A stretch of 64,000 bases of DNA, taken from NCBI GenBank assembly GCA_039621445.1, contig CP154954.1, positions 27,082,123 to 27,146,122 of the forward strand, given 5' to 3'. The stretch is from Euglena gracilis (taxonomy: Eukaryota). The number at the start of each line of letters is the position of its first letter. Positions within the stretch are counted from its first letter, which is position 1. The notes beneath the pieces were generated by a model. That model ran no database searches, was not told the DNA's origin, and was given only the letters and a program-made list of their open reading frames with translations. The position numbers and the translations under genes were made by a program. Positions 10,839 to 48,579 of this stretch are shown in pieces.

Positions 10839-11690
10839 AAAGGTACCAAAGTGCCTTTTCATTATTATGGGTTATTTTGGACAAAATGGGGAAACCCCCC
10901 CCCTCGAGCCACAACTGACCAAGTGGCTGACGCTTTAGTACAGTTATTTCAGTTTTACAAGGCCCAGGCACGTAATGCCTACAGTGCTATGCTTTTAATT
11001 CCTGGGTTTGGTGGTTTGAGATTCCACACCATGTAGGCCGCTTACAAGAGGCTTTGGAATCAAAATCTAGAAAAATATGGAGCTTTTTGGGATCCCCTCC
11101 CAATCCTCCTGGAGCTGGCCCAAGCCCCCTTTCCCTCTGATATATGCACGTTGGAAACACAGCCGATTTTAGCGTAAAGGCCAGAAATTCCATAAATGGG
11201 AGAGAGTTGTTTCACTTCCAAAGTGCCCACAGATCAGTCCCTTTCATTTAATGATGGCTTATGTGGCCGCTACCCGATTTAACGTAAAGCCTGGGGGCCC
11301 TTCAAAGCCATAAGGGCTGATACAATTGCCTCAATAACCAAAAACTTTTTATCCCAACATGGGGTACCACCCCAGGTGTTGGGGGCACACTCCACCAGAG
11401 GGGCTGGAGTTGGGTTGCTCAAAAAATTGGGCCTTTCTGTCCAAGAAGTTTGTGAAATTGGCCAGTGGAGTGGGGTGGAAGCTTTTACAGCCCACTATCA
11501 ACGACTTGGAGCCAAAGGTCCCTTGGAGAATGCCCTGGCCCCCCTTTTTTCAGTGCACAATCAGGCCTCACAAGGGCAAAGTGCGGAGCCCGAGGTGTCC
11601 CGCACTCCCTCGAGGCAAACCGACAAGGGAGGACGGGGCACCGAGGGCGAAGCACAAAGACCTTGTGAGCCCGACCCCCCCCACCCGTAA
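10730..11690 (+). pseudogene. DIRS tyrosine recombinase (frameshifted, internal deletions)
   Basis: AHSTRGAG (HxxR), IGQWS and AHYQR catalytic-region motifs; homologous to the YR of copy D. Confidence 0.85.
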
Positions 11691-19642: not shown

Positions 19643-20086
19643 CAGGGCTTTATAGAGGTAGAGGGATAGAGGAAGAGGCAGAGGTAGAGGTAGAGGTAGA
19701 GGTCACCTCTACCTCTACTATCCCTCTATGTCACCTCAATGTCAAACTTTTAAGGAAAGTGGCTTATGAAAGAAAATTCGAACGAAGGCAATTTTATGGA
19801 AAAAATCAGAAATTGGCCCTTCTTGTGACAAATCTCTTATGGCAATTTTTGAAACCACCCATCTGGGTATTTTTTCTCATTCCTAACCTAAATAAGATGC
19901 GTTAAGATGCTAATTTGCCAAATTTGAGGCATTTGGAGCCTTTTGTGGCCCATTATTGGTGCCAGTTTATGACATTTTATGGACATAGAGGTAACATAGA
20001 GGTAGAGGTAGAGGTAGAGGTGGGTCAGATAGAGGTAGAGGACTACCTCTTTCTTTGACCTCTACCTCTACCTCTATCCAGCCCTG
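19643..20086. mobile_element. CAGGGCT-terminated MITE with GTAGAG subterminal repeats (hAT- or P-like)
   Basis: CAGGGCTTTATAGAGGTAGAGG / CCTCTACCTCTATCCAGCCCTG; ATGTCAC duplicated on both sides. Confidence 0.8.
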
Positions 20087-27524: not shown

Positions 27525-28451
27525 CTTAAAAACGTGTTCAGCCCGCCAAATGCCTGCCCTGAAATTCGTGGTCATGAACACGTTTTCAATGAGGGCATCT
27601 GTGGCAATGACGCGTTTTCAATTAAGGCATCTGTGGTTAGGCACGTTTTCAATTAAGGCATCTGTGGTTAGGCACGTTTTCAATGAGGGCATCTGTGGCA
27701 AGACACGTTTTCGATTAAGGCATCTGTGTTCAGGCACGTTTTCCATTAGGGCATCTGTGGCAACCCTGAGTAAAAAGCAAAAAACGCTGTCACGAAAAAT
27801 CAGCGGGCGGTTGCGAGGCCGGGTGGTCCTCAACGAGTGAGGCGGGTCGGGGGCACTCTACAACACAACAGAAGGCCAGGTTGCCTTGGAGCACAACGAC
27901 ACGGAGTGGCGGACATCACGGAACACGACACGCTTTACACAAAAAAGAGCCATACTTTGGTGGCCGCCGCGAATCTTGGCAATGAAAATGATATGCCAAA
28001 CCGTGTTCAGCTCCACACAATTTCGATTTTTGGGAATGGCAAAGAAGAAAAGAGGTTGCCGAACGTTTCCCTGAAACGAACAAAGTTCCCGACTGCTGCT
28101 CACGTTGAGCCACACATTGTTCAATGACGCTCGCCTCATTGAACAACAGGCTGGGTTCCAGCTCCCATCCCGTCCAGGCAACAAAGAAAGCATCCAGCTC
28201 AGGATAAGAGGCTTGCCGATGTTGACACAGTTTGGCGAACTCCAAACAGTTGGCAACAGCAGCAAGCTCTGCACCTTCGGAGCCGGACTTTTTCTTTGTG
28301 TTGCCCTGTGCCAGCAAGCCAGCAAGCACGTTTTCTAAACAAATTGTGGCTGAGCCAGATTTCAGCCTGAAAACGTGTTCAGGGGGCCCCCTTCGGGGGC
28401 CCCCTGGCTGAACACGTTTTCAGGCTGAAATCTGGGCTCAGCCACAATTTG
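27525..28451. mobile_element. Composite repeat unit: ACACGTTTTCA repeats, 'MAKR' fragment (- strand), terminal hairpin of about 110 bp
   Basis: Same left end, cargo and hairpin as 30749-32128. Confidence 0.7.
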
Positions 28452-29335: not shown

Positions 29336-29652
29336 AATGGGCCAAAAACCACTTTTTTGGCCATATTTCCGTCCAGGCGGTTCAATCGAATGAATTTCAA
29401 GACAGGTGTCGGGCCCAGACAAAATAGGTTTTAAAAAAAATCGACCGACACCAACAGATTCAGCAGGGGCGCCAGGCGGCTCGCTTTGCTCGCTCGCGCC
29501 CGGCGCCCCTGCTGAATCTGTTAGTGTCGGCCGATTTTTGTATAGATAACATAAAGGGATTTTGTACTTGTTCGCCACTCGACCCCCGCCCAAAATTTTA
29601 CAAATTGGTTGCCTTGATTTGGGAAACGATTTTATGGGGCCAGTGGAAGGAA

Positions 29653-29764
29653 TAGGGTTAGGGTTAGGGTTGAGGGTTAGGGTTGAGGGTTAGGGTTGGG
29701 TTAGGGGTTAGGGTTAGGGGTTTTGGGTTAGGGTCAGGGTTCGGGTTATGGCCAGGGTTAGGGT
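29653..29764 (+). repeat. Short variant TTAGGG array
   Basis: TAGGGTTAGGGTTAGGGTTGAGGG... Confidence 0.9.
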
Positions 29765-29794
29765 CGTGTGCATCGCACAATAATGTGATAAATT

Positions 29795-30159
29795 GGGTAC
29801 TTGTTCGCTGCACGACCTCCACTTCGGAATTATTCTAAGTCGGACTTTTTAGGGTTATTAGAAGGAGTAGGGTTAGGCGCTAATGGCCATGTTGCGCTAA
29901 ACGGCTATGCAGCGCAACCATGGCTATGCGCTGCATGGTTGCTCTGCATAGCCATGCAGCGCAACACGGCCATTAGCGCCTAACCCTACTCCTTCTAATA
30001 ACCCCATAAGAACCTGGAGAAATTCCGAAGTGAAGGCTGTGCTTGTCTGTTATAATTCGACCGACACCCCCCCCCTTTTGGTTATGGTCGACGCCCTGTT
30101 TTTGGGTTATTATGGGGTGCCCCATATTTGGGTTATTATTATGCAGCGAACAAGTACCA
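29795..30159. mobile_element. GGGTACTTGT-terminated TIR element, 6-bp TSD, internal foldback
   Basis: TSD TAAATT on both sides; hairpin about 29852-30003. Confidence 0.8.
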
Positions 30160-30310: not shown

Positions 30311-32412
30311 GGGTACTTGTCTGTTATCGTACGACGGACCCCCCCCCCCCTTTTGGTTATGGTGCGACACCCTGTTTTTGGGTTATTAGGGTTATTTTAA
30401 GGGATAGGGTTAGGTGCGCACATACATGTTGCGCTACATGGCCATGTTGCGCTACACGGGCATGTTGTGCTCAGGCTTCTTTTTAAGTCACCTGACCCCC
30501 CCCCCCTCCCCCGGGGGGAGGGGGGGTGGGTGGGTGGGTCCGGGCCGGTCCCCCCCCGTCCCCGGGGGGGGGGGTCCCGCGCCGGAGGCGCTGGGTATAC
30601 CTTTTCGGCGCAAAGCGCCGAAAATTTTTGAAAATTGCGGGCCCGATTTTGGGGGGGTCCCCCCCCCCCCCCCCCCCCCCCCCGGGGGGGTCCCGCGCCA
30701 CCCTGGGTGGGTGGGGGGGGACCCCCCCTCCCCCCCCCCCCGGGGGCTTTAAAAACGTGTTCAGCCCGCCAAATGCCTGCCCTGAAATTCGTGGTCATGA
30801 ACACGTTTTCAATGAGGGCATTTGTGGCAATGACACGTTTTCAGTGAAGGCATCTGTGTTCAGGCACGTTTTCAATGAGGTTCATTTGTGGCAATGACAC
30901 GTTTTCAGTGAAGGCATCTGTGTTCAGGCACGTTTTCAGTGAGGGCATTTGTGGCAACCCCCAGCAAGAAACAAAAAACGCTATCATGAAAAATCGGCGT
31001 GCGGTTGAGAGGCCGGGTGGTCCTCAACGGGTGAGGCGGGTCGGGGGCACTCTACAACACGAAAAAGACGACAACAGGAAGGCTAGGTTGCCTTGGCACA
31101 ACGACGGGGAAGGGGCGAAAATCACGGCACACGACAGGCTTTGCACAAAAAAGAGCCATACCGCCGTTGACACTGCCTTCCGCGCGCGTTCACGCTCCAG
31201 GGAGCGCGAAAAAACAGCTGGTTGAAGTGGGGGAATTGGCGCTCTGAGGAAGGCAACACTACTCCCTCGGTCGTTGTTTTGCGGAATGCCCGAGCGACGG
31301 CATTCACGTATGTCTGAAAAGAGGTTGCCGAACGATTCCCTGAAACGAACAAAGTTCCCGACTGCTGCTCACGTTGAGCCACACATTGTTCGATGACGCT
31401 CGCCTCATCGAACAACAGGCTGGGTTGCAGCTCCCATCCCGTCCAGGCAACAAAGAAAGCATCCAGCTCAGGATAAGAGGCTTGCCGATGTTGACACAGT
31501 TTGGCGAACTCCAAACAGTTGGCAACAGCAGCAAGCTCTGCACCCACGGAGCCAGACTTTTTCTTTGTGTTGCCCTGTTCCAGCAAGGTGCCATGAAGGG
31601 GGTCAACCTTCGGCTTCTTGGCATCTTGCTGGTATACTGCGAGAGCAGCCAGGAACAGTTCCGTCCTAGGGGGTGGTGGCAAAAGACCATTCACAAAGTT
31701 TGCCGTGCGTTTGGCCATAATGGCAGGACTGCGGGAAAAAGGAAAAAAACGAAAAAAAAAAGGGGGGGGGTGACACGTTTTCAGTGAGGGCATTTGTGGC
31801 AATGACACGTTTTCAGTGAAGGCATCTGTGTTCAGGCACGTTTTCAGTGAGGGCATTTGTGGCAATGACACGTTTTCAGTGAAGGCATCTGTGTTCAGGC
31901 ACGTTTTCAGTGAGGGCGCCGTTTTTTTGGGTCCAAATTTCACAAATTCGCGTTTTTGACCCCTTGCGTGAATCATGACCACGAATTTCAGGGCAGGCAT
32001 TTGGCGGGCTCTGAACACGTTTTTAAACAAATTGTGGCTGAGCCCAGATTTCAGCCTGAAACCGTGTTCAGGGGGGCCCCCTGGGTGAACACGTTTTCAG
32101 GCTGAAATCTGGGCTCAGCCACAATTTGTGTATAAAAAAGAAGCCTGGTTGTGCTACATGGCCGTGTAGCGCAACGTGGCCATGTAGCGCTACACGGCCA
32201 TGTTGCGCAATACGGCCGTGTTGCACTACGTGGCCATATAGCGCTGCACGGCCACGTAGCGCAACATGGCCGTGTAGCGCAACATGGCCATGTGGCGCAA
32301 CATGGCCATTAGCGCCTAACCCTATCCCTTAAAATAACCCTAAAACGACCCCAAAAAAGGGTGCCGTACCATAACCAAAAGGGGGGGGTCCGTCGTACGA
32401 TAACAGACACCC
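30311..32412. mobile_element. GGGTACTTGT-terminated TIR element, 6-bp TSD, with nested cargo
   Basis: TIRs of about 150 bp; TSD GGGCAA on both sides (right TIR lacks 4 nt). Confidence 0.75.
31122..31718 (-). CDS. Orphan 'MAKR' protein, longest copy; possibly N-terminal part of a Crypton-like tyrosine recombinase
   Basis: Open 198-codon frame after a pyrimidine tract and CAG; homologous to three other loci in the window. The family assignment is speculative. Confidence 0.55.
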   Translation of the reverse strand: MAKRTANFVNGLLPPPPRTELFLAALAVYQQDAKKPKVDPLHGTLLEQGNTKKKSGSVGAELAAVANCLEFAKLCQHRQASYPELDAFFVAWTGWELQPSLLFDEASVIEQCVAQREQQSGTLFVSGNRSATSFQTYVNAVARAFRKTTTEGVVLPSSERQFPHFNQLFFRAPWSVNARGRQCQRRYGSFLCKACRVP

Positions 32413-33568: not shown

Positions 33569-34668
33569 TTTTTGGCACTTTTTATTTTGGGTCCCCTGGA
33601 TGCCGGCTTCACGGCTGAACCGGCTTGGGCGTGAAGCCAGAGCCCCAGACATAGTTTCATATAAAGGGATTTTCCCCTCTGGGAGCCCAAAAGGTCAGCG
33701 GGCTTTATCTTTCTTTCCCCCTGGATGCTCTTTGGGATCACGTCCGGGCCCCCAGGGGTCCCGCGGGACCGCCCTGTCAACCGGACCGGTCGAGTTCGAG
33801 GGGGGGTCCGGGGTCTGGACTGGTCATGTACAGGGGGGGCTCGTGGACTCCCCCTGTCGAGTTCCGAACAACTAGAAAAGGGGGGGCGCCCCAGCTAGAG
33901 CCCTTTTCGACCCCTCCTGGACTCCCTGGACCTCCTCTCCCCCCTGCCTAGTCTCCCTTGGTGATCGTAATGCGGCCAACGGTAAATATGCCTTTCCCTG
34001 GTGACCCATCCACAATCACCCTCCAATGCAACCTGGCTGCGAGATGAGCCTCAGCCCTTGGTTTTGCTGCACGCTTGAACCCAACAAACTCCCTTTAAAC
34101 CGGTTCACCAGTAAAATGGTTTTTGACAAGATGTGACAGGCTTTTTCACAAATGGCCAAAAATATGGTCAGCCATCCTACCCGGGAAGGAGACCTCCACA
34201 TTCATCTGTTTGGGGGCTTCATTCAGCATTTTTTTCAACAAAAAGTGGCAAGGCACATCCATGGAACATGCGTGACCATCTCTGTCATTTTTTTTCCAAT
34301 AACTTGCACATTTATTTCCATCCATCTGCTAAGCAAAAGGAAGGGAGAACAAAGGCGGTAAGGTCACATTTTTTGCATGCTTTCCCTGGGGTCCTTAGAT
34401 CCCAGACGATCACTGGTCTGGATGTCCATCAATCGCGAGACACCATTCCAGGCGATGAACAACAGGAAGAATCCAACCAATAGCCCAATCAAAGCATTTC
34501 CGGTCACAAAAGAATCTCCATATGACGCAGCACTCTGAAGATGAGGAATGAGGATTGTGTTTCAGGAGATCACATCTTCGACCTGAACGTGGATGTGTTG
34601 GTTCGTCATATCCAAATTTTCTTAATCAGATCCGCTTTTCGTACAGCGTTTGTAATTAGGAGTGGCCG

Positions 34669-37353
34669 CTGGGACAATTCTTTCTTCCGCCAGGTTGACA
34701 CCTCTGCGAAAACAGAACAAACAAACAGCAATGGAAGAGGATGCTTTTGGAAACCTTGTGGAGCACACGGTGTGTGATGAAGACACTCGCCCAATCGCAG
34801 CAGGTGAAACCCTCCGCCGATTGGTTGGCAAATGTCTCATGCGTCATCCCACAGTGGTAAACGCTTTGAAAGAACTGAGTCCTCCACAATGTGGCGTTGG
34901 CGTGCCGAATGCTTGTCCACTGATCGCAATGGGAATCCAACAAATGGTGGACACTCTGCACTCGGACAGAGACAATCGCTGGGGGCTGCTTCAAGTGGAT
35001 TTCAGGAATGCCTTCAACTCTTTGTCACGAGAAAAAATCCAGCAATCCATCCGTAGACGCTGCCCAGAAGTGTGCCCTTGGCTGGATTCGTGCTACGCCC
35101 AACACAGCAAGCTGTATTGTGGGAACCATTGTCTGCCTTCCCAGAGGGGAGCTCAGCAAGGCGACCCATGCGGACCTGCAGCTTTCGCCTGGGGTGTGCA
35201 AGACCTTTGTGAGGGCCTCTCACCCCTGGTCGAATGGCAGGGATGGTATTTGGATGACGCCCATCTGCTGGGATCGCCAGCCCAACTGCACAATGCCCTT
35301 GCCTTTCTGATTCGGGAGGCAGCCACGCTTGGGTTGGCCGTGAACCCTGCAAAATGTCGATTGTGGGGACCAGCGTTCACATCAACAGAAGGTGTCCCTT
35401 GCATTCCCCCTGGCACGCCACAGGACAGCCCCTTACACCAAATACCACTGACCGCCTTTGTTGCTGGTTCTGGTTTGAAAGTTTTGGGGGTCCCTGTCCA
35501 CCACCCCCAAGATGACCGCTTCTGTGAAGAAGTTTGGAAGCGCACAAGCGGGGTCACGCTTCAAGCGCATTGAAGACATCCGACGTTCTTGCACAGTACT
35601 TCAGCACCTACCTCAATCACATGTGCAATTCACCTTGCTTCGTTTTTGTTTATCCGCTTGCAAAGTGAATGACCTCTTGCGCGCCTGCAAAATAGCCTCT
35701 GCAACAGCGGCATGCAAGACATTGTCGGGAATTATTCGGGAAACATTCAGTAGCATGGTCGGCTCCCCTTGCACCCCAGAAGAATGGTTGCAAGTTTCCC
35801 TGGCCATCAGATGCGGTGGACTGGGAATCTCCGATCCACTATTTCAACGGAGGCTAGGCACAGTGGGGGGGGGGGGGGGGTTGGGGGGGGGGGGGCGAGC
35901 GGCCGCGCGGGCGGCCGCGTGGGGGGGAGGAGGGGGGAGGGTGGTCCGCGGGCGGCCGCGCGGGCTGAACGCATCCGAAAATCGGTGATTTTCGGGTCCA
36001 AAAAGTGGTCATTTTTTGCCATTTTTGGGCCATTTTTGACCAAAAAAGTGCTTTTTTGGCCGCGCGCAAAGCGCGCGGCCCCCAAATTTGCCATTTTGTG
36101 TCCGAAAATGGTCATTTTTGGTCATTTTTGGGCCTCAAAAAATCGCGATTTTTCACCAAAATTTTTTTTCTTGGCTATGCTAGGCACAGTGGGGGGAGGG
36201 GGGGGGGTCCAGGGGGGGGCGAGCGGCCGCGCGGGGGGCCGCGCAGGGGCCGCGCGGGGGGGGGGGGAGGGGGGGGCCCCGGACCCCCCCGAGCGGCGCG
36301 CCTAGCCTCCAACGTGTGCCTGCCAGATTGTCTCAAGTGGTGGACTTCTGTCGAAGAGCTCCCTCTGTCTTGGGCCTGCCCGCTGCCATGGACATCATTC
36401 CCAAAGACGCTGACGATTGCTTGCGGACAGCCCTCAATGAACTTGGTCAAATGGCCCCACTGCCACAATGGGCCAGTGACAAAAACTTGATCTCTCAGGC
36501 ACAGTCTCCACACAATTCACAACGTTGGTGGAATCAGCAGAGCATGCTTGCCCGCCAGAAAACACTTCGGGACACATTGAATGGACCTGATGCTGTACGC
36601 TTTGCAAGCCAATGCCAACCACACGCTATGGCATGGGCCGCTTTGACACCATCTCAAGGACTCCGCACCCTGTTACCCACGGCTGAATTCCGGTGCACAC
36701 TTCGTTGGTCCCTCGGAATGACTCTCACACCAATAGAATCCGATCCCAACCTCTGTCCCAAATGCTTTGGACAATCAGATTTTCTTGGACACCACCTCGT
36801 TTGCTGCAAATCAAACTTCATTACCCGGCGGCACGGGGCTGTCCAAGATTTTTTGACAACCACAACACAGAAGGCAGGATTTACAGCCCGTAAAGAACAA
36901 CGAGCTGATGACCGTTCACGGCCTGGGGATATCTTCATTCCTCCCTTGGACAGTGATGGACCCGTTGCAGTGGATGTGACAATCCGCCACACCCTTGCGC
37001 AAAGTCATCCGCTGCGAAGTGCAGAGAGCCTTTCACAATGGCAAACACGACAGGAGGCTGAAAAGCATGCCAAATATTGTGCAACATGCCAACGCTTGGG
37101 CTGGCGGATGATGCCATTCGTCATGGACTGCTACGGGGGCATGGGACAAGAGGCGCGCTCCTTGATGGCCACCCTCCTCAAGGCCCTTCTGGGGCAGCGG
37201 GAAGGGTGGCAACGGCGTGCCGCAGAAGCAGACATTTGGCAAGGCCCGTCCTTCACACTTACGAGAGAAATCAGCAGGCAGCTCGTTTGGAGCTTGTATT
37301 CTTCCAAAGATGAGATCACCCTGTCTTCCGCCCACTCACCATATTCTGTCTGA
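34669..37353 (+). mobile_element. CRE-clade non-LTR retrotransposon (RT, CCHC knuckle, restriction-like endonuclease), 5'-truncated, two insertions
   Basis: RPIAAGETLRRLVGK, VDFRNAFNS, GAQQGDP, WYLDD, GGLGI; CPKC...HHLVC; RRHGAV; RPGD...AVDVT; KHAKY. Confidence 0.93.
35850..36309. mobile_element. GC-rich MITE with 5-bp TSD inside the CRE ORF
   Basis: GAGGCTAGGCAC / GCGCCTAGCCTC; TSD CAACG; removal restores DPLFQR-VPARLS. Confidence 0.9.
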
Positions 37354-38254
37354 AGGCCTTTGAGCCCAAACTCTCAACCGAATAACCAACCTGGAACTCT
37401 CACCTGCTATGTTTAACCCCTAGTTACCCCCTGAGCAGGGCCACACGGCGAGCCAAAGACAAATCAATGGGTCACATAGACGCGCAGAGAAACAAAACAC
37501 AACAAAAGCCATAACCCGACACAAACACGCCATCCTGTGGCAAAAGAGGTACAAACGCCCCCCTCCCCGCCCAATATATATTGAAGGTGACCTTTGCTCA
37601 TCTTCCGCTAACCACTGACCTCCGCACCCTGAACAATATATGTCATCACTCTTTTGTACATTACACCCACAGTATAAGCTACCCGCGACCTGTGGCGGCA
37701 CAGGGAGTCACAAGGGGGTTCCTCTTGTGGCGAGGGCCAAAAGAGACGTTTCCCTGGGCCCGGGGCACGGTTTGGGTGAAGCAGTGCTACCCACCGTGGA
37801 CCAAAAAGTGCAGGCTGGGACATAACAGGACATTAAAAAAAGACATAACGGCTGGCCAACCGAATCGGCCAAACCTCTCAGAACGGCCAAAAATGTCGGT
37901 CTCCGAGCGGAATGCGCAGCTCCAAATCCTGCTGTTCGCATTCCAAGCTCAGTGGGACTACCGAACTATAGGGCGGGCATTGGGGATGTCTGACCGGACA
38001 ATTCGAAGAAATGTACAAATATTTCTTGCAGAAGGCCGAACAACACTTTTGTAACGACCTCCCCCACCCCGCCCCGAAGGTCGAAGCAGTGGAGCGAAAC
38101 CCCTTTGTATGGCATGTAATGTAGATTTGGAAAAAATTGACTTTCTTTCAGGTGACGTTATTCGAGTTGCAAGGAATGCTACGTAACCGACTGCAATTGT
38201 TTTTGTCATTGAGGACAATTTCGAGGTACCCGGAGAACCAACTAATAACCCGTA

Positions 38255-38494
38255 GGGGGGTCGGCACACCCCTCCCCCCCCCCCTCACCGACCCCCTCGC
38301 CACGCCATTTTACCCCCCCCTCCCCCCCCTTTTCAGACCCCCTCGCCACGCCATGTCAGCCGCGCCAAAGAAAATTTTCTTGGAAAACCCCCGCGCACCC
38401 CTCCCCCCCCCCCATCCGGGACCCCCTCGCCACGCCAAAACCCCCCCCTCCCCCCCCCCTAGCCGGACGGCTCGCCACGGCGTGCCGACCCCCC
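38255..38494. mobile_element. PIF/Harbinger-like MITE (3-bp TSD) in the transposase exon
   Basis: GGGGGGTCGGCAC / GTGCCGACCCCCC; TSD GTA; removal restores ITRK. Confidence 0.8.
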
Positions 38495-39281
38495 GTAAGG
38501 TTTCTTTTGAAGCTTGTGTGAAATTCCCTAATGTGTACATCGCCAGGTTGCGGACCAGGTCCCGCATGTTCGAAATGACCCCACAACCAAAGCCAATCGT
38601 CAAGCATTTATTTTTCAGTTCATCGGTGCCATGCTGGAGGGGCGGGAAACAATTTATGTGGACGAGTGCGGCTTCAATTTGTGGCTCCATCCCCGGTACG
38701 GGAGATCCCGACGGGGCAACCGCATTGGCTGTCCCATTGCCTCGACCCCGGGGAGAAATTTAACCCTCACTGCCGCAATGAGCCCCAACCACGGCTTGGT
38801 ATATTATGCTTTTGGAAGGGCCACTTAATATCCAAAAGTTCGCTTTCTTCATTCAAAACTTGGTCACCGTTTTGAAAATTGACAGGTATTTCATTAACTG
38901 CAATTTAATTCTGTTTTTTTGCCAAAAAAAATTGAGATTTATATCGCTCAAGAGATTTTGCATCCTTTTATGCTTTAAAATATTTTCATAATTTTCACAA
39001 TTTTGCATTTCAATTTAAAATTTTGAACCATTTATTTTTAATTTCACAAAAATTTTCGAATTAAAAATTCAATTTTTTTGAAAACGGATTTTTTGGCATT
39101 CAATTCTCAAAAAAAAACTTTTTTTGATGATTGGTATCAAAAATACCTCTCATCCCCCATAATTTAAGATTGCCTTGTTTGGTTGTCTTGGACAACCTTC
39201 GGGCACATACCCCATCTGTGCTTCAAACCCTTCTCCCCCCCTTTGGCCACCGCCATCTGTTTATCGCCCCTTATTCTCCAC

Positions 39282-40031
39282 GACAAGGGTTTGACAAAGC
39301 CGTTCTCAATTTGGGGGGATTGTGCAGGGTTGACGTTTTTTTTGTTTTTTTTTAAAAAAAACACAACAAAAAAACATGTTTTTTTTAAAAAAAACACAAA
39401 AAAAACATGTTTTTTTTGAAAAAGCAAAAATTGACCTTTTTCCTTGCGAAATGACCAGTTTTTTGAAGAAAATTTTTCGCGGGTAGTTCGGGTCACGAGG
39501 GGGGGGTCACGGGGGGTCACAGGGGGGGGGGTCACGAGGGGGGGTCACATTTTCGGTGGCCAGATTAGAAATCACCGAAAACGAATTTTTGGGGGAAAAT
39601 CCTTTTTAGGCTCCAAAATAGGAATCCCCCAAACGAAAATTAGGAAATCTACCGGAATATTTTGGCATCACCGGCCAAGTTTTTCAGAAAAAATGGCCGA
39701 AACGGGTCTTAGGTCGGGTTGGGGGAGGGGGGTCAAGGGGGGAACACCCCCTGTGAAGTTTTTTTTTTCAAATGTGTGAAAGTATTTCCAAATCTGTGTT
39801 TTCTGGTGCGAAAAATCATGCTTTCAACCCAAAAAAAATGAATGTTGTAGAGATAAAAAATGCACTTTTTCCCAAAAAAAACATTGCAAAAATTTTTTCC
39901 CCCAAACCCTCCATGAAGTTTTTTTGTTTTTTTTTAAAAAAAACCTATTTTTTAAAAAAAAACATGTTTTTTTTGTTTCAAAAAAGACAAGCCGTCAACC
40001 TTGGGCATGTGGCACGTCAAACCCTTTTCAA
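39282..40031 (+). other. Candidate euglenid nonconventional intron
   Basis: Non-GT-AG ends; +4..+14 AAGGGTTTGAC pairs perfectly with -16..-6 GTCAAACCCTT; excision restores PYSP-Q-LNATE. Confidence 0.75.
39325..40003. mobile_element. hAT-like MITE nested in that intron
   Basis: CAGGGTTGACG / CGTCAACCTTG; 8-bp TSD GGATTGTG / GGCATGTG; related ends at 41073 and about 51272. Confidence 0.8.
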
Positions 40032-42660
40032 AATTGAACGCCACTGAAGAAATGTTTTCTTTTGTGAAGCATGAGGTTCCGCAACGCCCCGATACCCTCT
40101 TTGTTTTTTTGGTTTCTAATTGTACTTTTTTTGTATGCCCTTCTTTTGTGAAAAATTTGGGGGGCCTTCACGGGTTGGTCAAGATTTGGGGGGGGGGGCT
40201 GCAAGGGTGGTGAGAATTGGGGGGGGGGAATTTCCCTTAAATTCCGTTTTTTTTTGTTTTGGGATTTACAATTTTTCTTCAATTTGATTTACTTTGGTTC
40301 AACTTTCTTTTTTTGTTTTTCCCCCTTCAACACCACACGAGGGCGTCAGAGAGAAGCTGTACTTGCATTCCCCTCAGCTCGCTGCCACTGACCACTTACC
40401 CTGGTGCCAAAAGGCCTACTCCCGCATGTTAATTCTCAAAAACATCCTGTTGGGGTGTTTGCAGCGCGTGACCGTCGCTCACGCCCGAGCGTGGCACAGC
40501 CACGCCATCACAGCCCACGCACAAAGCTTGCGGGGTCAAGACTTCTGAGTGTGAGCCCTGAATTGCTTTCGTCAACCCCCTCACTTCCATAGGGGACAGG
40601 GCACAGGGGGGGGAGGGGGGGGGGTCCGAGGGGGGTGGTTGGAAGCTGTACAGGGGGGGGGGGGGGGGGGGGGGCCCCAGAAAATCGCAACTGTACTGCC
40701 TACCCCCGAGACAGTTGCGACATTTTTCGTCCAATTGAGGTTGTCTTCGTTGTACATACCATTCCCCCCCCCCATAGTTAGTCACCCCCTTGGGAGGGGA
40801 ATTTGGCCAAGGTGACTAATAGGGGGGGGTGTAAGAACTGGCTAACTCAGGGGGGGGGGCAATTTATGCCCAATTTTTGCCCCCTACCCCAATTCTTGGG
40901 TGTTTCAAGGTTATCTTTTTGGGCATTCCGGGGCAATTTTCATGAATGACAACCATCAAAAAATTCCGATGGCCAAATTTGGTGGTTTTTTCAAAGAAAA
41001 ATATTTCCCTCCAAAAAATTGTTTTTGCCTGGGGTCCAAGGGTTACTAATAGGGGGGGTCACTAACTAGGGGCAGGGTTGACGTTTTTTTGTTTTGTTGT
41101 TTTTATAAAAAAAAGCATGTTCTTTTAAAAAAAAACCCAAAAATGTTTGTTTGTTTTTAAAAAAAGCAAAAGTTGACTTTTTTCCTTGCGGAATGACCAT
41201 TTTTTTTCAGGAAAAAGTTTTGAAGTAATCTTTTTGGTCATCAAAGTGACGTTTTTTAGTTTTTCCAAGGACATGATGGTTCATGTCCTTTCTGGACTAC
41301 GAAGCTGCAGAGATAAAAAAACTGGCCTTTTTCCTTTTTAAAAAAAATGTGCAAAAAAATGGTGCATTTCCACATCCAAAACAGAATTTTTTGGGCATTC
41401 CTTCAAAAATGGCCCAAAATGCATCCCAAAAAATGTGATGGTCAAGAAAATCCTGACAAAATTTCCTTTCAAAAAATGAAAACATGACCAATTTCGGACA
41501 AAAAATTTTTCATCTGTCTCGGGGGGGTTGGAAGTGGGGGGGGAGGGGGGGGGGCCCAGGAGGGGGGGGGTTGGAACTGTACAGGGGGGGGGGAGGGGGG
41601 GGTCCCAAGGTTTGACCAACTGTACTGCCTTGTCCCCATAGCATCAGAAAAACATACTTTTATACAAAAAAAGACACCTCAAACGGCAACCACTTTCGGG
41701 TGCTTGGCTCTGGCCAAATGAAACGAAGCCGTCGGGGGGGGGGGGCGACCCTTCTCCCTCTTTGTCACGAACCAAACTCTAGAGTGGGGCGGAGAGGCAG
41801 AAAGAGGCCCCCCGAGAAAATTTTTTTCTTCGGTTTTGTGCTCTTTGGGGGAAATGGGCAAAAAACATTCCTTTCACGTGGCAATTTTTTTTTGGTTTTG
41901 GGGTGGACTCCACCAGAGATGGGACAGTTTCCTCAGGGGGGTGGCCTGGCCCCCCTGCACAAAACCAACGTGTCTGAGGTCAACAAAAGCAACAAAAGCC
42001 GGTGCAAAAAATCTTCCTCAAATTTCTTCCAAAAAATCTTCCTCAAACGCCTTTGCCGTTTTCCCTCCCACAAAAACGGCAAGTAATCCCTTGCCTTGGC
42101 AAACATAAACAACCGAAAATTTTTTTGCATTCAATGCAGCTTGAAGGAAAACTTTCTGAAAAGGCATTTTCTTCATTAGATTGTTTTCATAAAATAAAAA
42201 CTGTGTGCACAACGAACAAACAGAGAAAGAAATCACGCAATGGTGAGGGACTTATTAAAAGACTTATTTGGAACGCTCCTTGAAACGGCCAGATGAGCAT
42301 TAGCATCACCACAGGAAGAAACAGTTTCAGACACGTAGACAGATGAACTACTTGTGGCACTACGTGAGCATACTGAAGAACAACAGCAAAAGAGGAAAAG
42401 AGAAATTGTTCAAACCTGCAAAGTTCGTTCACAAGTTGATGTTGCGATCTTAAAAAACAGTTCGGCGTGTTCAGTGAGACAACCTAAACGAAGAGAACTT
42501 GAAATTTTTTTGATTCAAAGTGAAAATGGGCATCATTTGAGATCGGCCAAACCTTGGCGACCTGGCGGCCAAACTCGAAATCCAACGGCCACTCCTAATT
42601 ACAAACGCTGTAGTAAATCTGACCGCTCTTTTGAGTGTCTATTATATATTTTTTTTCATG

Positions 42661-44640: not shown

Positions 44641-45074
44641 TGCCATAGCTGGCACTTCGTTTAAAACGAAGTCAAAAAAAAAACACGTTTTTTTTAAAAA
44701 AAACATGTTTTTTTTTAAAAAAAAAACGCCATTGAGGGTCCAGGGCAAAAAAAATTTTGCCTTTGATTTTAGCTTTTTTTGCCCATCCTCGGTCAGAGAA
44801 AGACACCAAATTTGGGATGTTTCAAGTTAGTTTGGAATGGTTTCAAGCCAAAATGGCAGAAAAATGCCCTATTTTGACCATTCTTGTTGAAGACAACCAA
44901 AAGTATTGGTTTTGAGCTAAGATTGGTTCACCCTTGCGATCAAAGGCAAAATTTGGACCATCATTTTCCCCTTTGTTTTTTTTGCCATTTTTTTTGCCCG
45001 TTTTTTTTTAATAAAAAACAAAAAACGTTTTTTTTAAAAAAAAACAAAAAAAAACGCCAGCTATGCTACCGTAG

Positions 45075-46815
45075 GTGCCATCTTGGCTTTTTCATGGGCT
45101 GCCCGTGACAATTCTCGAACATGTGGTGGCAGGGCTGGTGTGTGTGGAATGTGAAGTTTTATTAACAGGGGCCACCACACAGCTGAAACCCACAGGGGGC
45201 AAATCAGAAGGCATTTTAGGTGTCTGTGTTCCTTTAATCTCAGGAGCCACTGGCTCAAGACAGACCAGGGGGGGTTTGCATAAACCTCTGAGAACATGTC
45301 CAGAGGGCAGTTCAAACTGTCTGTGGCTACTGCCTGAAAATGGGGCCATCGACTCACAAACTGAGAAAGTTTGTGATTCCCTGGTGATGCAAACATGTCC
45401 ACAGTTGGGTTGATGAATTGCTGGAAAATGTGCATGACTTTTTTGAAAATGAAAGGGTTTAAACTGTAATCCCCTGGGTCGAAGTGCCATCTGCTGATGG
45501 CATCGCTTTTCATGCTTTGGGAGGGGCCCAGTGAACTTGGAGGGTGATGTCCATTTCCATACACCACTTGAGAAAGGGTCTGATGAGTTTGTTCAGGTGG
45601 GGTAGCCTGCCCCCCCCCCCCTTGAGAAGATAGTAGTAGGAAACTTTGTTGTCCACTGTTAGGGACACTGTGTCCTTTTTCTTGGCCAAAGACCTTACAG
45701 TTGAGAGTTGAGATGGCTGCGATCAATTCTTTTACATTGATATGTAAATGAGAGTCTTTTCGCCAAAATTCCTGTAATTGGGTGCCAGCTTGTAGGTCCA
45801 GGCCTCCCCAACCAAAGGTTGAGCTGTCTGACTCCAGGTGTCTGGTGGCTGGGCTTGGGAAGGGTCTCCCCCCCCCCAGGTCTACAGAATTTCCCTGACA
45901 TCTTGCAGTTGAGATTTGACCTCCTCTGGGATTGGAACCTGATGATCCCAGCCAAATTTTTCTTGTAGGTTGACAAAACCTACCAAAGTGTCTGTGAATG
46001 CCCTGAGGAAGGGCAGCCCCACCAAGAAGCTTCTTATGCATCCCAAAATTGAGGCCATTTTCCTGCAACTGAGGGACTGGTGTGTGACTAATTTCCCCAG
46101 TTCCCTCCGAACCATTTTCAGTTTTTCTGTCCCCAATTGTAATTTTCCCTGTGCCAGATTGAGGTGGAATCCCAAATGGGGGAGATTTTGGGTGGGTTGA
46201 AGGATTGATTTCTTGCTGTTGATTTTGAAACCCCCCTGCAGTAAATCTGCTAGCATGATGGCCAGGTGGTTGCTGACTTGCTTCTGACTGTCTCCTATCA
46301 GGAGGATGTCGTCCAGGTACACAAAACATAAAAGGCCTTTGGCTCTCCGACGTTTTTCCAGGCATTTCATTAGACTCATGAATTTTTCTGGCAGCACATT
46401 TAAACCAAAACAAGCTGCCTGGAATTCCCAGCATGTGTCTTCCAGAGTCATCCTCATGTAGGGTCTTAGGGCTGGGTTCAACATTAAATGAAAGTAGGCG
46501 TCCTTTAAGTCTACTTTTGCACCCCATTGTCCTTTTTTCAGGTGCCTGAAGATGACCTGGATGTTGTCCAGTTTGAATGGGTGTGTGGAAAAATGCTGGT
46601 TCAGTTGGCGACAGTCGCTGATTAAACGATGTTTTTCCCCTTGAGGCTCTTTTTTGGAGATTACAAACCAAGGGACGGTGTGTTGGGTACCTTCCCAGGG
46701 GACTGGTTTTATGGCTCCTGCCTGAAAATAGTCCTGTAAAATGCTTTTTGCCCTTTGTATTTCCACCTTTGACTTTGGTATGGAATATGTGCTGAGGGAG
46801 GGGGGTGACTCCCAA
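45075..46815 (-). pseudogene. RT, RNase H and methyltransferase of DIRS copy D
   Basis: HRLISDCRQLN, VDLKDAYF, YLDDIL, ESDSSTFGWGG, HINVKEL, SDAISR, VDMFASPGN, YANPPW. Confidence 0.92.
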
Positions 46816-48579
46816 GGGGGGTTACCCCCTGTGTGATGAGTTGCAACACCCTGGGGGGGGGCAACCTTTTGCCACCATGGCAGCTGGTCCTGAAGCCTCT
46901 GAAACAGAGGCACTCCCAGAAAGTGCTCCTCTGTCAGCAGCAGCACCTCGGTGATCTGTTCCACAGATCTCAAGCATGCAGCTTCCCACAGCCTGCAGAT
47001 GTCTTGGCTTCTGCCCTTCAGGGCTGGTTGACTTTGTGGCACAATGCCCAGCTCTGGAGGACACAATGTCCTTTTGGGACTTGATGAGTTCTGATCTGAA
47101 AAGGAAGGAGCAATACTTCCTGGCAAGATGTTGGGCAAACCATTTTCCTCCTTTGGACTTGCCTTTCCCTTTGGGGCCAGACCGCCATGGTCTCGGTTGC
47201 CAATTTGTTGGCCATTGCTTGAACTTCCACCCTTTTCCACCCGTGGGGGTGGGGAAATGCCACATGGGGAACTCACCCTTGAAGGGGGATTTGATACCCT
47301 CTTTGTTGATGCCAGCTTGGGCTTTGGCCATTTTGATGTCTTCAGGGGTGAACAGGCCATTTCCTGGTTGTATGGTCTGAGGGATGCTTCTCCTCTTCCT
47401 CTCCTTGACAATGTCACCTTCACGGCAGCCACGTATGCGAATCGTTGTTGGCTCAAACCCAATACGTCTTCAGGGGCTCCTTGTAAGGTGCAGTGCAGCG
47501 CTGCCAAGATACGCAGTATGTTCAAGAAATTCTGCTGGACAGCACGCAGGGTGCGGTCATACCCACTCTTACCGTCTTGACGGTGGTTGTTTTCCTCCGC
47601 TTTGGGCTTCAGGGTCTTCCAGGTGGGTATCTGTTCCAGCAAACTTCGTACGTCCAATCGTTAGTCCCCAGACTGTACCTGTGTCCATAGCCTCTCCAGG
47701 TCCCCTGGCAGTGCCTCCTCGGCCGTCTGCCAGGGGAAGTCCTGGGCTTCCTCCGCCGCGCGCGCTCCCTCCTCGTCGCGATCCATCTCCGCCGTCGTCG
47801 TCGTCGCCGTCGTCCACTTCTCGTACAGCTTGAAGGCCACGTCCGACGCCTTGTCGCTTAGCTCCAGTGACGGTATCGAGACGTTCTTCGTGAGTGCCAA
47901 GCTGTAGAGGTAAGCCGCCAGATATGGTTGTAGGGTAGACTCCACCATAGCCACTCCGGTGAGCTTCCGTACAGCAAGGGCACATCGGGTTGTATCCCAC
48001 CCTGCTCCAGTCCACTTCTGACTGGACACAATCGTGGCCATCACGGCGGTAGCGTCGGCATCTCGCAAGAAGGCTGTTGTCATTGATTCTTGTAAGAAAA
48101 TGTTGCTCCACGCCGCTTCAAAGGCCTCTTTGTCGGTCTCGTCTTGCAGGGTAATTTGCATGATCAGCTTGAATACTTTGGTTGCAGCTCCGTGCCAAAA
48201 GGACGTTATGATCCGCCTACTCCGGCAAAGAAAAGCAGTAAGAAACACCACAACCAACACCAAAAACACAAACAACAGCCGGAAAGAAGAGCAGGACCTC
48301 ACTGGGGTCTTGTGCGGAGCCGGAGCTGTCACAAACAGGCCCACCAGTGGGCATCCCAGTGAACAGTCCATTCCAAGGCCCACCAGTGGGCAGAAGCCAA
48401 GTATGCCCATCTGCCACATCAATCTTACAAATGTACATTCCATCACAGACCAACCTTTCGGGTGAACCCCAGCAATCCCAGCAACCTCTACAATCAAACT
48501 AACTGGAGCAGAGAAGAAGAACAGAGGAAGAATTGGAACAGAGAAGAAGAGCAACTCTTCAGAAGCCTCTACTACAAAA

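What the first reader, a model, noticed from the sequence alone, without database searches (positions are those of the whole stretch)
39282..40031. Nonconventional intron that looks like a hAT MITE: the +4/-6 rule equals an 8-bp TSD (candidate intron-generating system)
Seen: the conserved transposase motif PYSPxLNxxE is split by a 750-bp non-GT-AG insert. Cutting at TCTCCAC|GACAAGGG...CCCTTTTCAA|AATTGAAC restores CCA CAA TTG and exact DD34E spacing. With these junctions, positions +4..+14 pair perfectly (11 bp) with -6..-16. The stem AAGGGTTTGAC is nearly the terminus of the CAGGGTT(T/C)GA MITEs at 12141, 20638 and 39325, two of which show 8-bp TSDs. Known: euglenid nonconventional introns pair +4,5,6 (often CAG) with -8,-7,-6 (CTG), and a MITE origin has been suggested; hAT elements start CAG/TAG and make 8-bp TSDs. 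Inference: removing 3 nt before and 5 nt after the stem deletes exactly one 8-bp TSD. Any new CAG...CTG hAT insertion would then be a frame-neutral intron. The implied TSD here is decayed (TCCACGAC / TTCAAAAT, 4/8), so this copy alone does not prove the origin.
Basis: partly seen in the sequence, partly recalled or inferred. Interest (0 to 1): 0.88.

Follow-up and report, generated by a model that had tools for sequence, protein, structure and literature searches.

The report
Hairpin-ended candidate intron holding a nested MITE
A transposase gene is interrupted, in the middle of its catalytic motif, by a hairpin-ended insert shaped like a euglenid nonconventional intron that later received a second small transposon; it shows how such transposons could become harmless introns, but splicing was not seen.

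Summary
The core observation holds. An IS630/Tc1-type (DDE_3) transposase gene is split between PYSP and (Q)LNATE by a 750-nt non-GT-AG insert at 39282-40031. Its positions +4..+14 pair perfectly with -6..-16. The top 11 all remove exactly 750 nt, which is stem-to-stem 742 plus 8.

The insert is compound. A 63-nt hairpin-ended outer element carries a 679-bp inner MITE with CAG...TTG termini and an 8-bp target-site duplication (TSD, 6/8). DNA contigs of another run hold copies with the outer element but without the MITE.

The outer element has nonconventional-intron geometry: 3-nt and 5-nt spacers, and a purine starting the next exon. It reads AAG/CTT where the published splicing code demands CDG/CH'G. 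Its implied TSD (4/8) is no better than chance.

Splicing could not be tested, because two RNA runs gave essentially no reads on the exons.

The claimed MITEs at 12141 and 20638, with their TSDs, were not confirmed. Three other elements with inverted termini and 8-bp duplications were found. The MITE origin and TSD-like junction repeats are already in print; I found the explicit 3+5=8 link in no paper.

The parts
37894..38051 (+). Transposase exon 1 (ATG, helix-turn-helix part). The 3' border and the next exon are not resolved.
   Evidence: Pfam HTH_23 E 2.7e-5. NCBIfam IS630 profile 6-44. Homologue HMM positions 16-60 at 37911-38045.
38257..38491 (.). 235-bp element with inverted termini (GGGGTCGGCAC / GTGCCGACCC). 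It is flanked by CCCGTAGG (38249-38256) and CCCGTAAG (38492-38499). It is an extra insertion in this copy.
   Evidence: DNA contigs of X1 (depth 420) and a contig of X15 join 38248 to 38492, skipping 243 = 235+8. Termini and flanks checked.
38541..38885 (+). Transposase exon with ...YVDECGF... A +1 frameshift lies in a T run near 38813/38815.
   Evidence: HMM 125-215 at 38541-38813 and 217-238 at 38815-38880 in the next frame. DDE_3 profile 2-51. IS630 profile 140-201.
38886..39168 (+). Conventional GT...AG intron (GTATTT...TTTAAG), phase 2.
   Evidence: Borders read. Flanking exons are collinear on the HMM.
39169..39281 (+). Exon ending ...LDNLRAH...FIAPYSP plus the first base of the next codon.
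   Evidence: HMM 241-278 ends at P (39278-39280). DDE_3 profile 82-117. The IS630 match at profile 222-260 ends at the same P.
39282..40031 (+). The 750-nt non-GT-AG insert (candidate nonconventional intron, compound).
39285..39295 (+). 5' arm of the terminal stem, AAGGGTTTGAC (+4..+14).
40016..40026 (+). 3' arm of the terminal stem, GTCAAACCCTT (-16..-6).
39325..40003 (.). Nested 679-bp MITE with termini CAGGGTTGACG / CGTCAACCTTG (10 of 11, the mismatch being a G-T wobble) and A/T-rich subterminal repeats. Flanking 8-mers are GGATTGTG (39317-39324) and GGCATGTG (40004-40011), matching 6/8.
   Evidence: DNA contigs join 39318 to 40003 and 39318 to 40006 without it (depths 123 and 109, sides 23 and 21 nt).
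40032..40075 (+). Exon (Q)LNATEEMFSFVKHE carrying the catalytic E.
   Evidence: HMM 279-295, directly adjacent to position 278 of the previous exon..
40076..40341 (+). Conventional GT...AG intron (GTTCCG...CACGAG), phase 0.
40342..40548 (+). Last exon, to the stop codon.
   Evidence: HMM 293-358, 28.4 bits. Translation.
30472..32147 (.). 1676-bp element with termini CAGGCTTCTTTTTA / AAAAAAGAAGCCTG (13 of 14) and a perfect 8-bp TSD, GTTGTGCT.
   Evidence: The TSD interrupts the period of the flanking tandem repeat, so it is a real duplication.
19643..20086 (.). 444-bp element with a 22-nt terminal inverted repeat starting CAGGGCT (20 of 22). The direct repeat is GATGTCAC (8 nt) if the last G is counted with the repeat, otherwise ATGTCAC (7 nt).

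Best explanation
The locus is a copy of an IS630/Tc1/mariner-type (DDE_3) transposase gene with conventional GT-AG introns and one odd intervening sequence.

That sequence began as a roughly 63-nt hairpin-ended element. It sits exactly between two adjacent residues of the catalytic motif (PYSP | xLNxxE). A 679-bp MITE with CAG...TTG termini later inserted into the hairpin loop and duplicated 8 bp, bringing the insert to 750 nt.

I think the outer element most likely behaves as a euglenid nonconventional intron. Its 11-bp terminal stem brings the two junctions together. The cut would fall 3 nt before and 5 nt after the stem and rejoin CCA C|AA TTG.

Shown: the anatomy, the nesting and its order, the exact 750-nt requirement, and the geometry.

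Inferred: that RNA excision happens, and that the outer element descends from the same family of inverted termini as the nested MITE.
For: Family:
- Three separate exon pieces hit NCBIfam IS630 collinearly (profile 6-44, 140-201, 222-260), and the last match ends at the P before the insert.
- 182 homologues were found at E<=1e-3. Three tested ones are DDE_3 with E 6e-23 to 1e-28.

Precision:
- The HMM of 33 homologues puts positions 278 and 279 on either side of the insert.
- The best of 136 junction models is 39281|40032, and the top 11 all remove 750 nt.
- The motif columns are gap-free in 32 of 33 homologues.

Structure:
- +4..+14 pairs with -6..-16 in the MFE fold of the 750 nt.
- The 63-nt remainder folds at -26.2 kcal/mol, z = -4.8, with 0 of 500 shuffles reaching it.

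Published nonconventional-intron features met (PMC4770533 passages, PMC12501133 Results):
- non-GT-AG borders;
- +4/+5/+6 paired with -6/-7/-8;
- G/C at +7/-9;
- pyrimidine ending the upstream exon;
- purine at +1;
- purine starting the downstream exon;
- 3-nt and 5-nt spacers.

Age and retention:
- A diverged paralogue in X15 keeps the outer element and lacks the MITE. Its contigs show 16 other letters over 259 nt and 17 over 195 nt. X1 contigs also bridge the MITE site.
- The stem is perfect (22 nt unchanged) while the implied TSD differs at 4 of 8 positions. All four differences involve a spacer nucleotide that the code leaves free.

Intactness: the 3' half of the gene (HMM 125-358) is open and in phase across two GT-AG introns, with one frameshift in a T run.
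Against: - No spliced read was seen. Two RNA runs, each about 5-6% sampled, gave depth 0 (X21) and at most 0.7 (X24) over exons 38606-39275. The GT-AG introns were therefore not seen spliced either, so this is no test.
- The outer stem starts AAG and ends CTT. The genetically defined code requires C at +4 and G at -6, and single substitutions there abolished splicing (PMC12501133). Only 61.2% of annotated nonconventional introns fit that code. In the 2016 set, 33 of 55 had CAG/CTG.
- Two weaker published preferences are not met: a purine ends the intron, and T rather than C is the third nucleotide of the next exon.
- The copy has a frameshift and no detectable expression, so it may be a dead gene in which any insertion is tolerated.
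- The 63 nt are a multiple of 3 and open in frame, so read-through cannot be excluded.
- The 3+5 register is favoured by homology by only 1.3 bits.
Confidence: 0.55

Rival explanations
1. These are nested transposon insertions in a decaying transposase copy, and nothing is spliced. A miniature element with inverted termini (about 55 bp between stem edges, 8-bp TSD) hit the exon. The disabled gene was then copied passively, and a second MITE landed inside the first. On this reading the '3+5' geometry is only the footprint of an 8-bp TSD.
For: - The removed length equals stem-to-stem 742 + 8, as an 8-bp-TSD insertion predicts.
- The stem resembles the termini of the nested MITE and of 41606-42556.
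- Four other insertions with 8-bp duplications lie in this window, two of them inside this same gene.
- There is a frameshift near 38813.
- No exon reads were found in two RNA runs.
- AAG/CTT does not fit the tested code (PMC12501133).
Against: - The implied TSD is at chance (4/8, P=0.11) while the 22 stem nucleotides are all intact. Under equal neutral decay this is unlikely, roughly 0.75^22 (my estimate).
- The rest of the 3' coding sequence is open and in phase.
- A paralogue with roughly 6-9% other letters still keeps the element.
Confidence: 0.33
2. It is a genuine nonconventional intron with no transposon ancestry, arising for example from filler DNA at a repaired double-strand break, as Milanowski et al. 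2016 proposed. The likeness of its stem to MITE termini is then coincidence.
For: - There is no significant TSD.
- The pattern CAGGGTTYGA is not enriched in the window.
- The break-repair proposal is in PMC4770533 (passages read).
Against: - The stem and the termini of the nested MITE share AGGGTT(T)GAC, and both are ends of inverted pairs.
- The published consensus CCAGG / CCTG at +3..+7 / -9..-6 (PMC11170887, passages read) matches the termini of the 8-bp-TSD elements found here.
Confidence: 0.08
3. It is an assembly artefact, or a spliceosomal intron with unusual borders.
For: The window is rich in homopolymers and repeats.
Against: - Independent DNA contigs cover both borders, and contigs from paralogues cover the outer element.
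- I found no GT...AG pair in the insert that restores the frame. One candidate was checked by hand on the sequence.
- The best junction is GA...AA.
Confidence: 0.04

Closest known systems
Euglenid nonconventional introns (Milanowski et al. 2014, PMC3935182; 2016, PMC4770533; Nomura et al. 2025, PMC12501133)
   Same: - Non-GT-AG borders.
- A terminal stem that pairs +4,+5,+6 with -6,-7,-8 and brings the junctions together.
- 3-nt and 5-nt spacers.
- A purine at +1 and at the start of the next exon.
- Length within the published range.
   Different: - AAG/CTT in place of CAG/CTG (or CDG/CH'G).
- Removal from RNA not shown.
- It lies in a transposase gene, and a younger MITE sits in its loop.
MITE-origin hypothesis for nonconventional introns, with stems read as terminal inverted repeats and junction repeats as 'TSD-like' (PMC3935182; review PMC11282704, passages and the Fig. 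3D legend read)
   Same: Terminal inverted repeats at the position of the stem. This window adds real elements with CAG...CTG termini and 8-bp TSDs from the same genome.
   Different: The texts I read give no TSD length, no superfamily, and no statement that 3 + 5 nt of spacer equal one duplicated target. The eight-nucleotide repeats of the young gapC intron were attributed to break repair.
Introners: DNA transposons that create spliceosomal introns using their TSD (Huff et al. 2016, seen only as a citation and in the review PMC11282704)
   Same: The logic is the same: the insertion plus part of its own target duplication supplies what is needed for exact removal from RNA.
   Different: Introners use the spliceosome and GT/AG sites. 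Here the proposed removal is by the unknown nonconventional machinery, guided by the hairpin.
hAT-superfamily MITEs (8-bp TSD, short terminal inverted repeats; features recalled, not from a call)
   Same: 8-bp duplications in four elements of the window, short inverted termini, and three of them starting CAG.
   Different: No hAT transposase was found, although only 10 long ORFs of this window were scanned. Other superfamilies also make 8-bp TSDs.
IS630/Tc1/mariner (Pfam DDE_3) transposases
   Same: Collinear hits to NCBIfam IS630 and Pfam DDE_3, the (P/A)YSPxLNxxE motif, and 34 residues between the second D and the E.
   Different: The gene is in pieces with introns. No piece reaches a curated cut-off on its own. 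No terminal inverted repeats of the carrier element were found.

Membership tests
Euglenid nonconventional intron | Removed from pre-mRNA at non-GT/C-AG borders. | tested here: inconclusive
   The borders are GA...AA. The RNA lay gave no coverage of the exons, so neither splicing nor retention was seen.
Euglenid nonconventional intron | Base pairs between +4,+5,+6 and -6,-7,-8 in a structure that brings the ends together. | tested here: met
   11 perfect pairs, +4..+14 with -6..-16, present in the MFE fold of the full insert.
Euglenid nonconventional intron | CAG/CTG at those positions (33 of 55 in PMC4770533), or CDG/CH'G in the code of PMC12501133. | tested here: not met
   AAG / CTT.
Euglenid nonconventional intron | A 3-nt spacer before the 5' motif, a 5-6-nt spacer after the 3' motif, and a purine starting the next exon. 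| tested here: met
   Spacers are GAC and TTCAA, and the next exon starts with A. This holds for the junction that scores best of 136 models. The register is fixed by homology only to within 1.3 bits.
Euglenid nonconventional intron | [quoted passage not shown] | tested here: inconclusive
   The upstream exon ends in C (met). The intron ends in A (not met). +1 is G (met). The third exon nucleotide is T (not met). Deviations of these kinds are reported as common in PMC4770533.
hAT-like MITE (nested element 39325-40003) | Terminal inverted repeats. | tested here: met
   10 of 11 positions, with the mismatch a G-T wobble. 19 of 30 over the first 30 nt.
hAT-like MITE (nested element 39325-40003) | 8-bp target-site duplication and an empty site elsewhere. 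| tested here: met
   GGATTGTG / GGCATGTG match 6/8 (chance P 0.004). Two DNA contigs bridge the site without the element, with sides of only 21-23 nt.
hAT-like MITE (nested element 39325-40003) | An autonomous partner encoding a hAT transposase. | not testable with these tools
   No genome is held. None was found among the 10 long ORFs of the window that were scanned.
hAT-like MITE (outer element) | 8-bp target-site duplication. | tested here: not met
   TCCACGAC / TTCAAAAT match 4/8, P(>=4/8)=0.11. Only the length (742 + 8 = 750) fits.
IS630/Tc1/mariner transposase (DDE_3) | Profile match over the catalytic domain. | tested here: met
   The pieces are collinear but each falls below the curated cut-offs. 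The joined exons score 45.6 bits on an HMM of 33 homologues, and three of those homologues pass the DDE_3 cut-off.
IS630/Tc1/mariner transposase (DDE_3) | An intact, expressed gene. | tested here: not met
   There is a frameshift near 38813/38815. HMM positions 61-88 were not found. No exon reads were found in two RNA runs.

The most novel reading that the evidence does not exclude
In this organism, and perhaps in euglenids generally, small DNA transposons with CAG...CTG termini that duplicate 8 bp of target are the source of nonconventional introns. The fixed 3-nt and 5-nt spacers of the splicing code would be the two parts of the duplicated target. RNA excision then removes the element plus exactly one TSD copy and restores the pre-insertion message. 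Any such insertion into an exon would be born as a frame-neutral intron. The outer element here would be an old member of this class, with its target duplication drifted in the free spacer positions and its first stem pair changed on both sides. The nested MITE would be a young relative.
Probability: 0.35. Interest if true: 0.85.

Novelty: new member of a known kind. Interest (0 to 1): 0.6.

Why it matters
How euglenid nonconventional introns arise, and why their cut sites lie 3 nt and 5 nt outside the hairpin, are open questions. The MITE origin has been proposed since 2014.

This locus places in one genome (a) a candidate intron with that geometry and (b) real elements with CAG...CTG termini and 8-bp target duplications. 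The sum 3 + 5 = 8 turns the old idea into a sharp, countable prediction: in young introns, the last 5 exon nt plus the first 3 intron nt should equal the last 5 intron nt plus the first 3 exon nt.

One published young intron with eight-nucleotide junction repeats already fits. If the prediction holds, it would give a spliceosome-independent counterpart to introners. It would also explain why most of these introns have 'slidable' borders.

Tried and rejected
- **RNA evidence.** The look-up of sequencing runs listed no RNA holder. I laid two raw RNA runs of the same species label. X21 laid 455 of 12.9 million reads and X24 laid 116 of 8.29 million. Nearly all lay on homopolymer tracts and repeats, and none gave a joint at 39281/40032 or at the GT-AG introns. 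This is no test of splicing.\n- **Whole genome.** None is held.\n- **Other copies by protein search.** The search for homologous proteins found nothing with exon 38628-38825 ('longer') or with ORF 39131-39352 ('near').\n- **Other copies by DNA search.** Two metagenome scans found nothing, one with a 23-nt exon end and one with a 24-nt MITE interior.\n- **PDB.** No informative match with exon 38619-38825 or with homologue P0018.\n- **Wrong frame.** The third protein and the whole used window:39172-39279, which is the wrong frame. Their negative results are void. The right frame was used.\n- **Short exon pieces** of 23-27 aa gave no family hit.\n- **Rfam.** No match in the window.\n- **Broad scans for inverted terminal repeats** were mostly noise.\n- **Candidate 28356-28434** (7/8 flanks) was rejected because its flanks are themselves palindromic.\n- **A scan for code-conforming nonconventional introns** elsewhere in the gene gave only short chance stems.\n- **Self-comparison of the window** for insertion polymorphisms gave no further cases with inverted termini and a TSD.\n- **Similarity of the insert's ends to the exon-exon join, and an internal direct repeat,** were not significant: 1059, 560 and 151 of 2000 shuffles reached the observed scores.\n- **Terminal inverted repeats for the transposase-bearing element** were not found: 73 of 500 shuffles reached the best score.\n- **Cluster look-up of five homologues** gave no organism names.\n- **search of earlier findings** returned nothing.

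Full report
**What is there.** The window is repeat-rich nuclear DNA. No whole genome is held for it, and Rfam finds nothing in it.

On the + strand between about 37894 and 40548 lies a gene for an IS630/Tc1/mariner-type transposase.
- Three separate exon pieces hit the NCBIfam IS630 model collinearly at profile 6-44, 140-201 and 222-260.
- Two pieces hit Pfam DDE_3 at profile 2-51 and 82-117.
- A full HMMER search with exon piece 38619-38825 found 182 proteins at E<=1e-3.
- The three full-length homologues I tested are DDE_3, with E 6e-23 to 1e-28, and two of the three (P0017, P0042) also carry Tc3/IS630-type helix-turn-helix domains.

**Gene model.** I aligned the 33 of the 150 listed hits that are 320-400 aa long and built an HMM of 360 positions. 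I then mapped the gene onto it:

| Window | HMM positions | Note |
|---|---|---|
| 37911-38045 | 16-60 | |
| 38149-38256 | 89-126 | weak |
| 38541-38813 | 125-215 | |
| 38815-38880 | 217-238 | next frame: a frameshift in a T run |
| 39167-39280 | 241-278 | |
| 40031-40081 | 279-295 | |
| 40342-40545 | 293-358 | |

- Introns 38886-39168 and 40076-40341 are GT...AG and in phase.
- The 5' part of the model (HMM positions 61-88, and the exon 2/3 link) is unresolved.

**The observation.**
- The insert 39282-40031 is 750 nt, with borders GA...AA.
- AAGGGTTTGAC at 39285-39295 is the exact complement of 40016-40026. This is +4..+14 with -6..-16, and the pairing stops at both ends.
- The MFE fold of the whole insert uses these pairs.
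- The insert lies between HMM positions 278 and 279.
- In the homologue alignment the ten columns (P/A)YSPxLNxxE are contiguous and gap-free in 32 of 33 sequences. Counts are Y 30, S 30, P 31, L 29, N 32 and E 30 of 33. The x residue is F 15, M 7 and Q 5.

I scored 136 in-frame junction models, with the exon ending at 39272-39291 and restarting at 40022-40041. The homologues had been chosen by similarity to a different exon, so this test is independent of the junction region.
- The best 11 models all remove exactly 750 nt (39.3-45.6 bits).
- The best 747-nt model scores 38.0 bits.
- Keeping the outer 63 nt scores 24.4 bits.
- The left exon alone scores 19.9 bits.

Homology therefore fixes the removed length at 750, which is stem-to-stem 742 plus 8. 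It prefers the 3+5 register only weakly, by 1.3 bits. The D-to-E distance is 34 residues by my count. The nearest full-length homologue, P0018, also shows 34, while others range from 29 to 46. The spacing is consistent with the family but not diagnostic.

**The insert is compound.**
- Inside it lies a 679-bp MITE at 39325-40003. Its termini are CAGGGTTGACG / CGTCAACCTTG, with A/T-rich subterminal repeats.
- Its flanks are GGATTGTG and GGCATGTG, matching 6/8 (chance P 0.004).
- 679 + 8 = 687, which leaves a 63-nt outer element.
- The outer element folds into a hairpin of -26.2 kcal/mol, z = -4.8, with 0 of 500 shuffles reaching it. The MITE sits in its loop.

**Other copies.**
- In DNA contigs of run X1, two joints bridge the MITE site without the MITE: 39318 to 40003 and 39318 to 40006. 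Depths are 123 and 109, and the shorter sides are 23 and 21 nt.
- In X15, two contigs stop at the MITE site. One covers 39060-39318 with 16 other letters. The other covers 40003-40197 with 17 other letters.
- Diverged paralogues therefore carry the outer element and the GT-AG intron but not the MITE. The MITE came later.
- An X1 contig of 131 nt matches 39151-39281 without a mismatch and ends exactly at the exon/insert border. This suggests that copies differ from that base on. I could not see how, because only 15 of 63 joints were listed.
- The same lay shows that 38249-38491 (243 nt) is absent from other copies. It is a 235-bp element with inverted termini and flanks CCCGTAGG / CCCGTAAG.

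**RNA.** No RNA holder was listed. Two raw RNA runs of the same species label, each sampled to 5-6%, gave depth 0 (X21) and at most 0.7 (X24) over the exons. No joint appeared at any intron of this gene. Splicing is therefore untested.

**Is it a nonconventional intron?** I compared it with the descriptive model (PMC4770533, passages read) and with the genetic code 5'-N3CDG-/-CH'GN5-6|R (PMC12501133, abstract and all Results read).
- Met: non-GT-AG borders; pairing of +4/5/6 with -6/7/8; G/C at +7/-9; 3-nt and 5-nt spacers; pyrimidine before the 5' cut; purine at +1; purine starting the next exon.
- Not met: C at +4 and G at -6 (it has A and T, still paired); pyrimidine at the intron's 3' end; C at the third exon position.
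- In the published sets, 33 of 55 introns had CAG/CTG, and 61.2% of annotated nonconventional introns fit the code. A paired non-CAG stem is therefore unusual but not excluded. No compensated change at the first position is reported in the text I read.

**The transposon link.**
- The implied TSD of the outer element matches 4/8 (P 0.11), which is no evidence.
- Its stem nevertheless aligns with the termini of the nested MITE, and with those of an inverted pair at 41606-42556 (11 of 12, no TSD). The shared core is AGGGTT(T)GAC.
20638 ends a tandem unit. Their TSDs are not confirmed.
- I did find other 8-bp duplications: 30472-32147 (CAGGC... termini, GTTGTGCT 8/8, chance 1.5e-5 per pair, among 122 candidates), 19643-20086 (22-nt inverted repeat starting CAGGGCT, repeat of 8 or 7 nt), and the 235-bp element above (7/8, empty site seen).
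- Three of the four elements with 8-bp duplications start CAG and end CTG or TTG.
- For those three, the nucleotide 6 nt past the end is a purine.
- 30472-32147 meets the published cis-code in full (13 of 14 stem pairs). The nested MITE has T, not C, at -8. In 19643-20086 the stem breaks after 7 pairs.
- For 30472-32147, cutting 3 nt before and 5 nt after would restore the pre-insertion sequence exactly.
- No hAT transposase turned up in 10 long ORFs. Three were reverse transcriptases.

**Literature.**
- MITE origin was proposed in PMC3935182 (passages read).
- The stems are called terminal inverted repeats, and the junction repeats 'TSD-like', in PMC11282704 (passages read).
- Eight-nucleotide direct repeats occur at a recently gained gapC intron, and were attributed to break repair (PMC4770533).
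- 84.4% of introns have junction direct repeats ('slidable') (PMC12501133).
- The consensus is CCAGG at +3..+7 and CCTG at -9..-6 in E. gracilis, with 11,653 of 16,151 nonconventional introns having ambiguous borders (PMC11170887, passages read).
- Searches found no paper that joins Euglena or nonconventional introns with hAT. One search listed 4 of the 5 papers that hold both 'nonconventional introns' and 'target site duplication'; I read passages only of the review (PMC11282704), which gives no TSD length. One search (introner + Euglena) listed no title that makes the link. I read none of these listed papers beyond those cited above. Supplements were closed.

**Verdict.** The anatomy is solid. 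Intron function is plausible but unproven (0.55). The main rival is an unspliced nested insertion in a dead gene (0.33). The 3+5=8 reading is arithmetically right, fits independent published facts and three to four local elements, and is directly testable. It extends an existing hypothesis rather than founding a new one.

Noticed in passing
window 38249-38499: A 235-bp element with inverted termini and an 8-bp duplication (7/8) lies in the transposase gene. It is absent from other genomic copies: the DNA joint 38248 to 38492 skips 243 nt. Its termini start GGGG, not CAG, so 8-bp duplications here are not limited to CAG-ended elements.
   Followed up: yes
window 39151-39281: A DNA contig of run X1 (131 nt, no mismatch, depth 291) ends exactly at the last exon base before the insert. 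This hints that family copies diverge from that base on. The listed output did not show what the other copies carry there.
   Followed up: partly
window 39223-39232 and 40017-40026: The 10-mer TCAAACCCTT of the 3' stem arm also occurs in the upstream exon. The local alignment is 12 of 13, reached by 9 of 2000 shuffles. The 5' arm could therefore also pair with the exon. Unexplained.
   Followed up: partly
window 28311-28326 versus 31588-32015: One copy of a repeated unit has CCAGCAAG twice in tandem, exactly where its paralogue has 428 nt. The doubled 8-mer looks like an excision footprint that kept both target copies, but the paralogue's 428 nt have no matching termini.
   Followed up: partly
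window 14028-14800, 29650-29990 and near 32320: Arrays of TAGGGTTAGGGT-type hexamer repeats in both orientations, lying inside the window rather than at an end.
   Followed up: no
window 5630-6394 (-), 8627-10918 (+), 34656-35573 (+), 45061-47660 (-): Several retroelement copies. RVT_1 scores E 5e-15, 8e-12 and 7e-15 on three of the ORFs (8627-9964, 34656-35573, 45882-47660). One neighbouring ORF has a weak Dam-methylase-like hit. The window is largely mobile DNA.
   Followed up: partly
window 38800-38825: The only frame break in the 3' half of the transposase gene is one extra T in a TTTT run. This could be a true mutation or a homopolymer error of the assembly.
   Followed up: no
window 39419-39914: The interior of the nested MITE has roughly a thousand times the contig depth of the transposase exons in DNA run X1 (about 250,000-340,000 against 300-500). 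It also has low RNA coverage on both strands. It belongs to a very abundant repeat family.
   Followed up: no
window 41606-42556: A 951-bp stretch is bounded by CAAGGTTTGACC / GGCCAAACCTTG (11 of 12). These termini resemble the outer stem, but no flanking direct repeat of 5 nt or more appears at any nearby register.
   Followed up: partly
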